Below are positions 47,101 through 53,059 of a DNA stretch of 64,000 bases, one piece after another. This DNA is from Amoebidium appalachense. Lineage: Eukaryota > Protista > Ichthyosporea. How positions within the stretch are numbered: the stretch's first letter is position 1; every line of letters starts with the position of its first letter. The stretch covers positions 8,064,818 through 8,128,817 of the forward strand of contig CAVNZM010000008.1 in assembly GCA_963693365.1 (NCBI GenBank). Reading direction: 5' to 3'. The position numbers and the translations under genes were made by a program. The notes under the pieces are model-generated. The model was not told the DNA's origin. It saw nothing but the letters and a program-made list of their open reading frames with translations, and ran no database searches.

Positions 47101-50100
47101 GGGCAAGGAGGGAGGGATGGAGGGAGGGAGGGAAGGAGGGAGGGAGGGAAGGAGCGAGCGAGGGAGGGAGGGAGGGAGGGAGGGAGGGAGGGAGGGGAGG
47201 GAGGGGAGGAAGGGAGGGAGAGGGGGGAGGGAGAGAGGGAGGGAGGGAGGGAGGGAGGGAGGCAGGGACGGAGGGAGGCAGGCAGGCAGGCGGGCGGGCA
47301 GGCAGGCAGGCAAACAGGCAGGCAGGCAGGGAGGGACGCAGGAAGGGACGGAGGGAGGGTGGGTGGGTGGAGGTGAGGGATGGACGGAGGGTGGGTGGGT
47401 GGAAGGGAGGGAGGGAAGAAAGATATGGACACCCCTTTGTCTTACTTACTTTCTTTGTCCCTTTCGTTCATTCCTCTTTCAAAAATATTTCCTTTTCTTC
47501 CATGTCCTTTTCTTTCCTTTCCATTTCCCCCTTTACCTTTTTCATTATCATTTGTTTTGTTTTCACAGTTTCATTATACTACGACGTTCAATATAGTATT
47601 TTTATTTTCCGTTTTACCTGTATGGTGTTTGCGAGCTCCCTCTGGTCGCTGGTCAGGTTGGTGGCTGCAAGCATCTCCCCCGTGGTGATGATGCCGCACA
47701 TCGGTGTGCGGATCTCATGTGACTATAAATAGCAGCCAATCAGAACGGGGGAAGAAAAGGGCAAAAACCGCTTGTTGATTGGTGCCCACGCGGGAAAGAA
47801 TTGGAGAAAAGGGAAGGGGTAAGGGGGGCAGGAGAAGGAGGGAAGGGGGGTGGGTGGAGGAGGGACGAGGTGATGGTGATTGGGGGGTGCTGTTTGTGTG
47901 TTGGGAAGGGGGGGAGAGGGGGGGGGAGGGGGGGAGGGGGGAGGGGGGATGAATGGTCTCAGATCATGCGGAGTGTAATGGGTGAGAGAACGGTGAGGTT
48001 GTGAAGACGGTCATTTGGTGATTTGAAGGCAAACGTTGATTTGTTTATCGGAAATACGGATATCATGTCGTGTCGATATTTTGTCATTCGAACATGAAAC
48101 AGGAAATGGGCTATCGATTTGCCGGTGAATCACTGTTAAACCCGATGATCGTAAACAAAAAAGGCTATTTTTCTGCAATCTCGCACAAACTCTTTAATCA
48201 CAAAGCGGTTTGGATTCACTGACAGTGTGAGTATCTGGGATGTAAAAAGCATATACGGAGTAAACATGTATGTTTTATCGGTAGAAGGAGGACCAGATAG
48301 CCGGATGCATAATATGTGTAAGTGTGTGTGCACATATGTAAGGCTATTTTTTTTCCTTAAGCTTTTTCTTTTTCTTTCTTTTTTTTTTTTTTTTTTTTGT
48401 TGGGGGGGGGGGGGGAGGGGGGGAGGGGAGGGGAGGGGGATGGATGGGAGAAGGGGGAAGGGCGGGGAGCGGGAGGGGGGGGGAGGGGGGGGGGGGGCAT
48501 GTCAACCATCTGTGCGAGGAATGCGGCCTTTGCGCGCTCGGACTGTTCGGCCGACTCCTTCAGCTGCAGGGCCTCCTCCCGGCCGGCACGCAGCTCCCCC
48601 TCCACCCGCCGGCGCTGCACCAACGTGTCTAGCCGTTTGCGCAAGACGTACGTGTCGTGCCCCCGCAGAAACTCATCGGGTGGCACAAAGTAGAGGTTGT
48701 CGTGCAGCTCCCCCCCCACGTGGCACTGCGGGTGCACCTCCATCACCTGCACGTGTGTGTGTGTGTGTGCGTGTAAGTGTGTGTGTGTGTGTGTGTGTGT
48801 GTGTGTGTTTGTGTGTGCCGTGGATGCATGTCTGTGTGTGTGTGTGTGTGTGTGTGTGTGTGTGTGTGTGTGTGTGTGTGTGTGTGTGTGTGTGTGTGTG
48901 TGCGTCCGTGCGGACGTGTGTGTGCTTGCATGCACACAAAAAACATGCATGTGTGCGGGCATGCCTGAGCAAGTTTGTTGATGCAGTTATGCTTTTGTAC
49001 CCACGTGTCTGTGTATACATTGTACCCGTGGGTGTGTGTTAAGCACGGAGGCTGAGAGGGTGAAGATGGAGATGAGAGGTAGTTGTGTGTGTGCGGGGGG
49101 AGGGGGGGCGGGGTTCGTTTTATTTATGTTTCCTTTTCCGGAACTTCTTTTCAACGTCCCAAAGAAGAGGTGCGGGGGGGGGGGGGGGGGGGGGGGGGGG
49201 GGGATCTCATGCAAACGAACAGAGAAAAAGGGAATGATCTCGGCTCTTTAGGCTTTTTACGGTAAGTAACAGCACAATCTCTTCTTTCAAAAAACTTTTT
49301 TTTTTTTGGGGGGGGGGGGGGGGGGGGGGGGATAGCATTTTTCTGTTTTGTTTTTGTTTTCTGCCAGGTTTTTTCTTTTTGAGGAGCTAGCCCCTTCATC
49401 CCCCCCCCCCCCCCCCCCCCCCTTCCCTCCACCCATCTACCCCACACACACTTTTTGTTTATACTTTTTGAATTGGGAGGGGGGGGGGGGGCACTAGGAG
49501 TGGATTTGTGCGGCGGGGATCGAATTGGACCTTGTTCATTGAGCCGGAGTCGAAAAGTTGCATGTTGAACTGACAGAGGCATATGGTAAATGGTTCCTCC
49601 CCATGGGGGGCTGTAGAGTTTGTTGATGTGCGACTCCCAGTTGCACAGTTTCCTGATGTCGAATGTGTGCGTGTACGTGTGTGTATGGGTGTGTGGGTGT
49701 GTGGAAGGAGGGGGAAAGGGGGGGGTGACCGTTTTGGCAGGGCGGGGCGGGGCGGGGGGGGGGGGGGGGGGGAAGGGGGGCGTTTGTGTGTGTGTGTGTG
49801 TGTGTGTGTGTGTGTGTGTGTGTGTGTGTGTGTGTGTGTGTGTGGGTCGGTGGGTGGGTGGGTGGGTGTGGTTGAGTGGGTGGTTGGGTGTTTGTATATG
49901 TGTGGGTGTGTGTGTGTGTGTCTGTGTGTGTCTGTGTGTTTATGTGTCTGTATGTGCCCGCGCGCGTGTGCATGTCCATGTTCGCATGGTTGTGCATGTA
50001 CGTGTGCCGGTATGTGTGTGCGTGTTTGCAGTGTGTTGGTTGTGTAAGATGGATGTATGATTGCTGTGAGTGAATGTTTCTACAATTTCGTGACGACCTC

Positions 50101-53059: not shown

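What the first reader, a model, noticed from the sequence alone, without database searches (positions are those of the whole stretch)
48507..53059. Prokaryote-type MEDS sensor fused to an intron-rich eukaryotic hybrid histidine kinase
Seen: five exons encode [35 protein letters not shown]...[18 protein letters not shown]...WESHIN...ICLCQFN...[23 protein letters not shown] coiled coil links this to the H box SHEIRTP, then HATPase and receiver, with no obvious transmembrane segment. Known: this pattern fits the MEDS (methanogen/methylotroph DcmR sensory) domain, predicted to sense small hydrocarbon derivatives and mainly described in archaea and bacteria. Inference: an old horizontally acquired, intronised and duplicated cytosolic small-molecule sensor for a eukaryotic phosphorelay, in an organism whose OGT looks opisthokont.
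Basis: partly seen in the sequence, partly recalled or inferred. Interest (0 to 1): 0.75.

Follow-up and report, generated by a model that had tools for sequence, protein, structure and literature searches.

The report
Frameshift-scarred eukaryotic MEDS sensor kinase
This microbial eukaryote has an intron-rich signalling kinase gene with a worn bacterial-type MEDS sensor at its front, a design that two amoebae also carry intact, so it likely belongs to an overlooked class of eukaryotic kinases rather than being a one-off gene transfer.

Summary
The gene is real: 13 exons on the minus strand (53059-41190) give an open 867-aa frame, MEDS-like domain, helix, HisKA, HATPase, receiver. Two corrections. 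(1) WESHIN and ICLCQFN lie in different frames. A public contig shows the exon 3-4 joint in the frame that skips WESHIN, and two others confirm the exon-4 DNA. A compensated frameshift has therefore replaced the helix holding the Glu found in 71 of 71 homologues. The domain keeps 19 of 39 conserved positions; amoebal ones keep 34. One kinase intron ends in CG. (2) The architecture is not unique: Dermamoeba algensis and Filamoeba sp. encode the same four domains. Trees neither show nor reject a shared origin (AU p 0.11 and 0.50). The fold, modelled for Dermamoeba, is KaiC-like without Walker A (Z 15). The duplicate is recent, not old. Nine paper searches found no eukaryotic MEDS kinase; the scan's notes hold no look-alike. 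Verdict: new variant of a known kind, moderate interest.

The parts
52871..53059 (-). Exon 1: ATG after an in-frame stop; MEDS first strand (H-x-C) and helix
   Evidence: Pfam MEDS E 8e-4
51751..51920 (-). Exon 2: MEDS second strand to middle
   Evidence: aligns to homologues; no Pfam hit alone; the phase-2 donor was chosen by homology
50693..50805 (-). Exon 3: MEDS GY..LR...W strand
   Evidence: Pfam MEDS E 3.7e-3; 3' end joined to exon 4 in contig X8
49531..49652 (-). Exon 4: about 45 nt read out of the ancestral frame (WESHIN helix off-frame, 49651-49607), then C-Q-F strand in frame
48507..48746 (-). Exon 5: MEDS HP and N-x-YF-x-PP motifs plus the helical linker to the kinase
   Evidence: phmmer, 18 of 20 hits carry MEDS; linker 58 residues
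47618..47722 (-). Exon 6: H box, phospho-His codon at 47719-47717
   Evidence: Pfam HisKA E 3e-8
46678..46794 (-). Exon 7: second HisKA helix
   Evidence: Pfam HisKA E 0.16; alignment
46196..46306 (-). Exon 8 (GC donor, shared with the paralogue)
44755..45015 (-). Exon 9: N box and G1 box; acceptor reads CG at the end of a CA microsatellite
   Evidence: Pfam HATPase_c E 5.4e-10
44180..44436 (-). Exon 10: G2 box
   Evidence: Pfam HATPase_c E 1.1e-8
43230..43908 (-). Exon 11: Pro/Ser-rich linker and first half of the receiver, phospho-Asp codon at 43238-43236
   Evidence: Pfam Response_reg E 3.3e-9
42225..42293 (-). Exon 12: receiver middle
41190..41360 (-). Exon 13: receiver Thr and Lys motifs, stop codon
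465..6256 (+). Recent paralogue, exons 8-13 only; its 5' part lies before the window, so its MEDS part cannot be seen; 1-nt gap in the receiver exon

Best explanation
The gene is a spliced, intron-rich hybrid histidine kinase whose N-terminal MEDS-derived domain carries a compensated frameshift, so it likely makes a cytosolic kinase that is weakened in, or uncoupled from, its sensor input. Shown: the exon chain, the open frame, the H, N, G1, G2 and receiver motifs, the exon 3-4 joint, the off-frame ancestral helix, and intact proteins of the same architecture in Dermamoeba and Filamoeba. Inferred for intact family members: an ATPase-dead KaiC-type domain changes shape on an input (most likely a small metabolite, by the DcmR and EtnR2 precedent, about 55%; otherwise a partner protein or nucleotide). 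It would pass that change through a continuous helix to the dimeric DHp, set His autophosphorylation, and move the phosphate to the attached receiver Asp and on to an HPt protein (not seen here). Inferred for this copy: after a recent duplication, selection on the sensor relaxed while the kinase frame stayed open.
For: Open 867-aa frame with 11 of 12 introns GT/GC-AG. Exon 3-4 joint at the predicted GT/AG in contig X8, identical to this copy over the 66 nt shown. The off-frame 14-mer ranks first of 1168 stop-free off-frame 14-mers on a profile of the MEDS helix (-5.8 against -14.1 for the next and -23.3 for the best in-frame), sits at the homologous place, and has GC3 12 of 14 against 6 of 15 in frame (211 of 269 in exons 5-9). 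It adds 14-16 bits. Conserved columns kept: 19 of 39 as spliced, 22 with the old frame, 34 in each named amoebal protein; longest end branch among the well-aligned rows of the MEDS trees. Linker from the PP motif to the His: 58 residues here and in two prokaryote-type fusions, 76-77 in the amoebal group, 94 in one other, that is steps of 18, about five helical turns. The Dermamoeba domain model (pLDDT 76) matches KaiC at Z 15.0, rmsd 2.6 over 166 residues; no Walker A in 3 of 3 checked.
Against: X8 is listed as 'DNA?'; no holder is on record as RNA, so expression rests on one spliced contig. The exon 5-6 joint (sensor to kinase) was not seen in reads. The CG acceptor, if real, removes the N box. 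Other direct fusions have linkers of 52-66 residues that do not fit the 18-step pattern. Even in the old frame the domain keeps only 22 of 39 positions, so it was diverging before the frameshift and may have a changed, not lost, function. This protein was not folded, only its amoebal homologue. No ligand, HPt or response regulator could be tested.
Confidence: 0.55

Rival explanations
1. It is a decaying duplicate: still transcribed, but kinase-dead because the CG acceptor is real and splicing falls on the next AG 33 nt downstream, deleting the N box in frame.
For: Two lesions in one gene (frameshift, CG acceptor); a recent paralogue 35 kb away; non-synonymous codon differences equal or outnumber synonymous ones in the four gap-free exons (21 against 15).
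Against: No stop codon in 867 codons; all catalytic motifs kept; 21:15 is still below the neutral ratio of roughly 2-3:1 (established knowledge); the CG ends a long CA run, where assembly slips are expected, and the paralogue has a 1-nt gap of its own.
Confidence: 0.2
2. It is a fully working small-molecule sensor acquired by a lateral transfer specific to this lineage.
For: MEDS part is 24-29% identical to prokaryote-type and amoebal domains alike; linker length matches prokaryote-type fusions, not amoebal ones; the kinase does not join the amoebal clade (100/99) in the free tree; the LG+G4 MEDS tree separates it from the amoebae.
Against: The invariant Glu helix is out of frame. No supported donor clade in four trees. 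A clade with the amoebae is not rejected (AU p 0.113 for MEDS; 0.502 for the kinase) and appeared with SH-aLRT 83 in one quick tree that carried a long-branch warning.
Confidence: 0.2
3. Recoding restores the helix: a -1 shift near the exon 3-4 joint and a +1 shift at the C run 45 nt later, or RNA editing, would give the ancestral MEDS helix.
For: The off-frame helix is well preserved and both ends lie at short homopolymers.
Against: Homopolymers are ordinary slippage sites and a young frameshift preserves the old frame anyway; the spliced contig shows no inserted base over the 66 nt displayed; two opposite programmed shifts 15 codons apart have no precedent known to me (recalled).
Confidence: 0.03
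4. The frameshift is an assembly error and the sensor is intact.
For: The window is full of long homopolymers, and X2 and X4 may be the assembly's own source data.
Against: X2 (2011, depth 32) and X4 (2024, another study) both span exon 4 without a gap; X8, a third sample, shows the phase-1 joint and no gap in the last 30 nt of exon 3. Only 9 nt of exon 3 after the conserved Trp remain unchecked, and one change there could not remove the second shift.
Confidence: 0.02

Closest known systems
Amoebozoan MEDS-HisKA-HATPase-receiver proteins: EP01097_Dermamoeba_algensis_P005028 (P0009), EP00027_Filamoeba_sp_ATCC50430_P001677 and _P011702 (P0022, P0141), unnamed P0023
   Same: Identical domain order, no other sensor domain, kinase 37-40% identical
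   Different: Their Glu helix is in frame and 34 of 39 conserved columns are kept in P0009 and P0022 (27 in P0023); linker 18-19 residues longer; MEDS only about 24-26% identical. They are database entries; I found no paper on them.
Prokaryotic MEDS (PF14417) histidine kinases, e.g. Methanosarcina MA2082 (PMC11784639, passages), Natrinema WP_138247468.1, Terriglobales MFB3814984.1, unnamed P0028 and P0005
   Same: N-terminal MEDS, C-terminal HP and N-x-Y-x-x-PP motifs, helix into a cytosolic kinase; 25-29% identity
   Different: No introns; many have PAS or GAF domains between sensor and kinase; conserved helix intact
DcmR and EtnR2 (10.1101/2024.02.19.581074 and PMC11507031, passages)
   Same: MEDS domain; source of the small-hydrocarbon sensing idea
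   Different: Transcription regulators, not kinases; in the passages read, binding to EtnR2 is stated as a hypothesis
Inactivated KaiC-like domains (iKaiC; PMC5847659 table labels MEDS as iKaiC); KaiC, FlaH
   Same: RecA/KaiC fold (Z 15.0 for the Dermamoeba model), used in signalling
   Different: No Walker A; 7-14% identity; nothing here indicates a ring or a clock
Eukaryotic hybrid sensor kinases surveyed by Kabbara et al. (PMC6324907)
   Same: HisKA-HATPase-receiver layout feeding a phosphorelay
   Different: MEDS occurs 0 times in the main text and in the one supplement file held; the figures, which draw architectures, were not visible

Membership tests
MEDS (PF14417) | Pfam score above the 29.8-bit cut-off for the domain | tested here: inconclusive
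   Only single exons could be scanned: 19.7 and 17.6 bits on separate profile parts. Own HMMs give 128-137 bits as spliced.
MEDS (PF14417) | First strand with His and Cys | tested here: met
   Columns 12 and 14 kept
MEDS (PF14417) | G..LR..GEM.W strand | tested here: met
   G, L, R, M, W kept; G to A and E to D
MEDS (PF14417) | Helix with the Glu found in 71 of 71 homologues (L.EYE..LN) | tested here: not met
   Absent from the spliced frame, present one base off frame. Filed therefore as MEDS-derived, not as an intact member.
MEDS (PF14417) | CQY strand and HP motif | tested here: met
   C, Q, H, P kept; Y to F
MEDS (PF14417) | Binds a small hydrocarbon derivative | not testable with these tools
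   Published prediction (Anantharaman and Aravind 2005, seen only as a reference and through PMC11507031)
Inactivated KaiC-like domain | RecA/KaiC fold | tested here: inconclusive
   Met for the Dermamoeba homologue; this protein itself was not folded
Inactivated KaiC-like domain | Walker A lost | tested here: met
   No [GA]xxxxGK[ST] in this domain, P0009 or P0022
Hybrid histidine kinase | H box (HisKA) | tested here: met
   E 3e-8, above cut-off
Hybrid histidine kinase | N, G1 and G2 boxes in one spliced frame | tested here: inconclusive
   All encoded, but the N box needs the acceptor that reads CG
Hybrid histidine kinase | Receiver with acidic pair, phospho-Asp, Thr and Lys | tested here: met
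   Response_reg E 3.3e-9; motifs read
Hybrid histidine kinase | HPt and response regulator in the genome | not testable with these tools
   No whole genome is held for this window
Lineage-specific lateral transfer | Nested with support in a prokaryotic clade, apart from other eukaryotes | tested here: inconclusive
   No starred set holds it; a eukaryotic clade is not rejected

The most novel reading that the evidence does not exclude
Eukaryotes have an undescribed, old class of hybrid histidine kinases gated by a catalytically dead KaiC-fold (MEDS) domain. It was acquired once from prokaryotes before Discosea, Variosea and this organism's lineage split, was lost from animals and the well-studied fungi, and gives protists a prokaryote-style sensor for small hydrocarbons or epoxides.
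Probability: 0.3. Interest if true: 0.65.

Novelty: new variant of a known kind. Interest (0 to 1): 0.42.

Why it matters
What eukaryotic histidine kinases sense is mostly unknown, and MEDS is treated as an archaeal and bacterial domain in the papers I could read. A soluble four-domain protein with one sensor, intact in two named amoebae, is a simple system for testing what MEDS binds and how a dead KaiC fold controls a kinase. This copy adds a natural loss-of-helix variant. It is the weaker member of the class; the amoebal proteins are the better experimental targets.

Tried and rejected
No whole genome is held, so HPt, response regulators and other MEDS copies could not be sought. No RNA holder was listed among 24 runs; X9, X14, X3 and X10 laid nothing on exon 4 (4 of the 8 runs laid), which is no evidence either way. 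The word-indexed protein search with exon 5 found nothing. The genome index gave only a 26-nt chance match for exon 4, no match for P0003 in 20 aligned fungal and protist genomes, and only generic kinase matches for exon 10, all 'same domain' (19 of 20 genomes); a survey of protist genomes with P0009 did not complete, so the range of the class is open. The metagenome scan with P0023 returned generic kinases. The Atlas gave only leads under 0.9. The profile search (49 hits) missed P0022, which was in its own query, so these searches undercount. Alternative donors, acceptors and a micro-intron that would put WESHIN in frame were listed and rejected. The window holds no second MEDS copy. Trees: one search dropped 9 of 83 rows (partial, duplicate, or the literal-frame model); one search dropped 25 of 74 (near-duplicates, two misaligned long branches, P0023); one search used 27 of 112 after a 62% identity filter and has no fungal or plant kinases; one search used 30 rows; the mixture-model searches did not finish and are quick trees. 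Makarova et al. 2017 is not held.

Full report
Gene structure. The finding covers the first five exons of a 13-exon minus-strand gene from 53059 to 41190. Joined by coordinates, the exons give 2604 nt, 867 codons and no internal stop; ten introns are GT-AG, one is GC-AG and one ends in CG. Pfam, run exon by exon on 14 pieces, finds MEDS on exons 1 and 3 (E 8e-4 and 3.7e-3, each under the cut-off), HisKA on exon 6, HATPase_c on exons 9 and 10, and Response_reg on exon 11. Exon 5 ends in phase 0 just before the H box that opens exon 6, at the place where homologues run straight on. This joint is inferred from GT-AG and homology; it was not seen in reads. No membrane segment precedes the kinase.

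The N-terminal domain is MEDS-derived. Weak plasmid hits of exons 1 and 5 fell on annotated MEDS proteins. The spliced N-terminus aligns to two haloarchaeal MEDS kinases at 25% over 239 residues. Exon 5 alone found 20 proteins at E up to 0.001 among 1.84 billion, 18 with Pfam MEDS. Own HMMs score the domain at 128-137 bits.

The only GT donor at the end of exon 3 and the only AG in front of exon 4 join in phase 1. That frame runs through ICLCQFN but reads a Ser/Thr-rich stretch where WESHIN should be. Contigs of runs X4 and X2 cover exon 4 without a difference or gap; both are flagged as possible sources of the assembly, but they come from two studies. A contig of X8, a third sample, leaves exon 4 at the acceptor and continues with the last 30 nt of exon 3, which is the phase-1 joint. 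X8 is labelled 'DNA?' by guess; a joint exactly at GT/AG points to spliced RNA, though a processed copy is not excluded. The off-frame stretch is the ancestral one: it is the best of 1168 off-frame 14-mers on a profile of that helix, holds the Glu found in 71 of 71 homologues, and has the gene's GC3 bias. So two opposite one-base changes about 45-60 nt apart replaced a core helix (H136-153 in the Dermamoeba model) and kept the kinase in frame. The domain keeps 19 of 39 conserved columns, 22 with the old frame, against 34 in P0009 and P0022.

A second lesion is uncertain. The acceptor of the N-box exon reads CG, where the paralogue has AG. It ends a long CA run and could be an assembly slip; I could not test it. 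If real, the next AG deletes the N box in frame.

The duplicate is recent. A plus-strand copy at 465-6256 has the same exons 8-13 at 87-96% nucleotide identity in five comparisons and 80% in the receiver exon, with parts of the introns still alignable. Its 5' half lies outside the window.

The architecture is shared with amoebae. Hit P0009 is a Dermamoeba algensis protein with MEDS, HisKA, HATPase and receiver only. Searching with it found two Filamoeba sp. proteins and unnamed P0023 with the same four domains; their kinases form a clade at 100/99. Several prokaryote-type proteins also fuse MEDS directly to a kinase, some with a receiver (P0004, P0028, P0164, P0169, P0179, P0181). P0003, an unnamed 74-aa piece, matches exon 5 at 37% over 70 residues without a gap, starts where exon 5 starts and ends in a CE repeat like a read-through into a microsatellite intron; it may be an exon of a closer eukaryotic relative, but I could not fetch its DNA.

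Origin is unresolved. One quick mixture-model MEDS tree grouped this gene with the amoebal proteins (SH-aLRT 83, long-branch warning). Two trees without P0023 did not. AU tests do not reject one eukaryotic clade for MEDS (p 0.113) or for the kinase (p 0.502). No tree gives a supported prokaryotic donor. A prokaryotic source at some depth is likely, since nearly all homologues found are prokaryote-type, but one old acquisition and separate transfers both remain open. The host is a non-animal eukaryote by inference (animals lack such kinases according to PMC6324907); the OGT exon matches animal OGT structures without placing it.

Fold and mechanism. An AlphaFold model of the Dermamoeba domain (pLDDT 76) matches KaiC, FlaH and RecA-type ATPases (Foldseek E 2e-6 to 7e-5; Z 15.0, rmsd 2.6, 166 residues), and a haloarchaeal MEDS sequence weakly hits SSO2452 and KaiC. 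This agrees with PMC5847659, whose table labels MEDS as inactivated KaiC. Walker A is absent. The linker to the His is 58 residues here, 76-77 in the amoebal group and 94 in P0164, steps of five helical turns, as expected for a helix that carries the signal in register; other fusions have 52-66 and do not fit. The best-supported mechanism is a cytosolic sensor kinase for a His-Asp phosphorelay. The input is unknown; small-molecule binding rests on DcmR and EtnR2 and is worded as prediction or hypothesis in the passages read. In this copy the sensor is likely impaired.

Literature. Nine full-text searches gave no paper on eukaryotic MEDS kinases. I read term counts and passages, not whole texts: PMC6324907 (MEDS 0 in text and in the one supplement file held), PMC6944256 (MEDS once, under Archaea), PMC4758236 and PMC5804921 (0 in text; their figures and supplements, which draw kinase architectures, were not seen and could show MEDS), PMC11784639, PMC5847659, PMC11796333, PMC11507031 and bioRxiv 2024.02.19.581074 (passages). 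Anantharaman and Aravind 2005 and Makarova et al. 2017 were not read. Subscription journals are mostly not covered. The scan's notes hold no look-alike by sequence or place; MEDS notes concern prokaryotes.

Verdict. All parts are known, the combination exists in prokaryotes, and its presence in eukaryotes appears undescribed: new variant of a known kind, interest 0.42.

Noticed in passing
window 56416-59853, + strand: A 3.4-kb element between direct repeats (103 nt at 98% and 71 nt at 99%, about 3.25 kb apart) with ORFs at 56683-57417, 58461-59114 (Phage_int_SAM_1, E 2.7e-5) and 58994-59545 (tyrosine-recombinase-like by eye). It looks like a DIRS/Ngaro- or Crypton-like mobile element (names recalled); no reverse transcriptase was seen.
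   Followed up: partly
window about 17400-35200, - strand: Multi-exon O-GlcNAc transferase gene (Glyco_transf_41 E 1.7e-13; OGT structures E 9.5e-18) lying between the two kinase paralogues.
   Followed up: partly
window 49546 and 49668 to about 46365: Contigs of X1 and X2 jump from exon 4 back to about 46365-46368 on the same strand, 3.2-3.3 kb away, with different breakpoints (matched by eye). This fits library chimeras better than a real tandem duplication.
   Followed up: partly
introns throughout the window, e.g. 46795-46870: Introns are packed with poly-C, poly-A and CA/GT runs; the acceptor of exon 7 is preceded by about 30 A instead of a pyrimidine tract.
   Followed up: no
P0003: Unnamed 74-aa piece that looks like a single exon equivalent to exon 5 from another intron-bearing eukaryote.
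   Followed up: partly
window 55710-55834: Two tandem copies of a 63-nt unit at 95% identity.
   Followed up: no
window 17484-17708, - strand: Open stretch that reads like a WD40-type exon by eye; no Pfam hit at E 0.01.
   Followed up: partly
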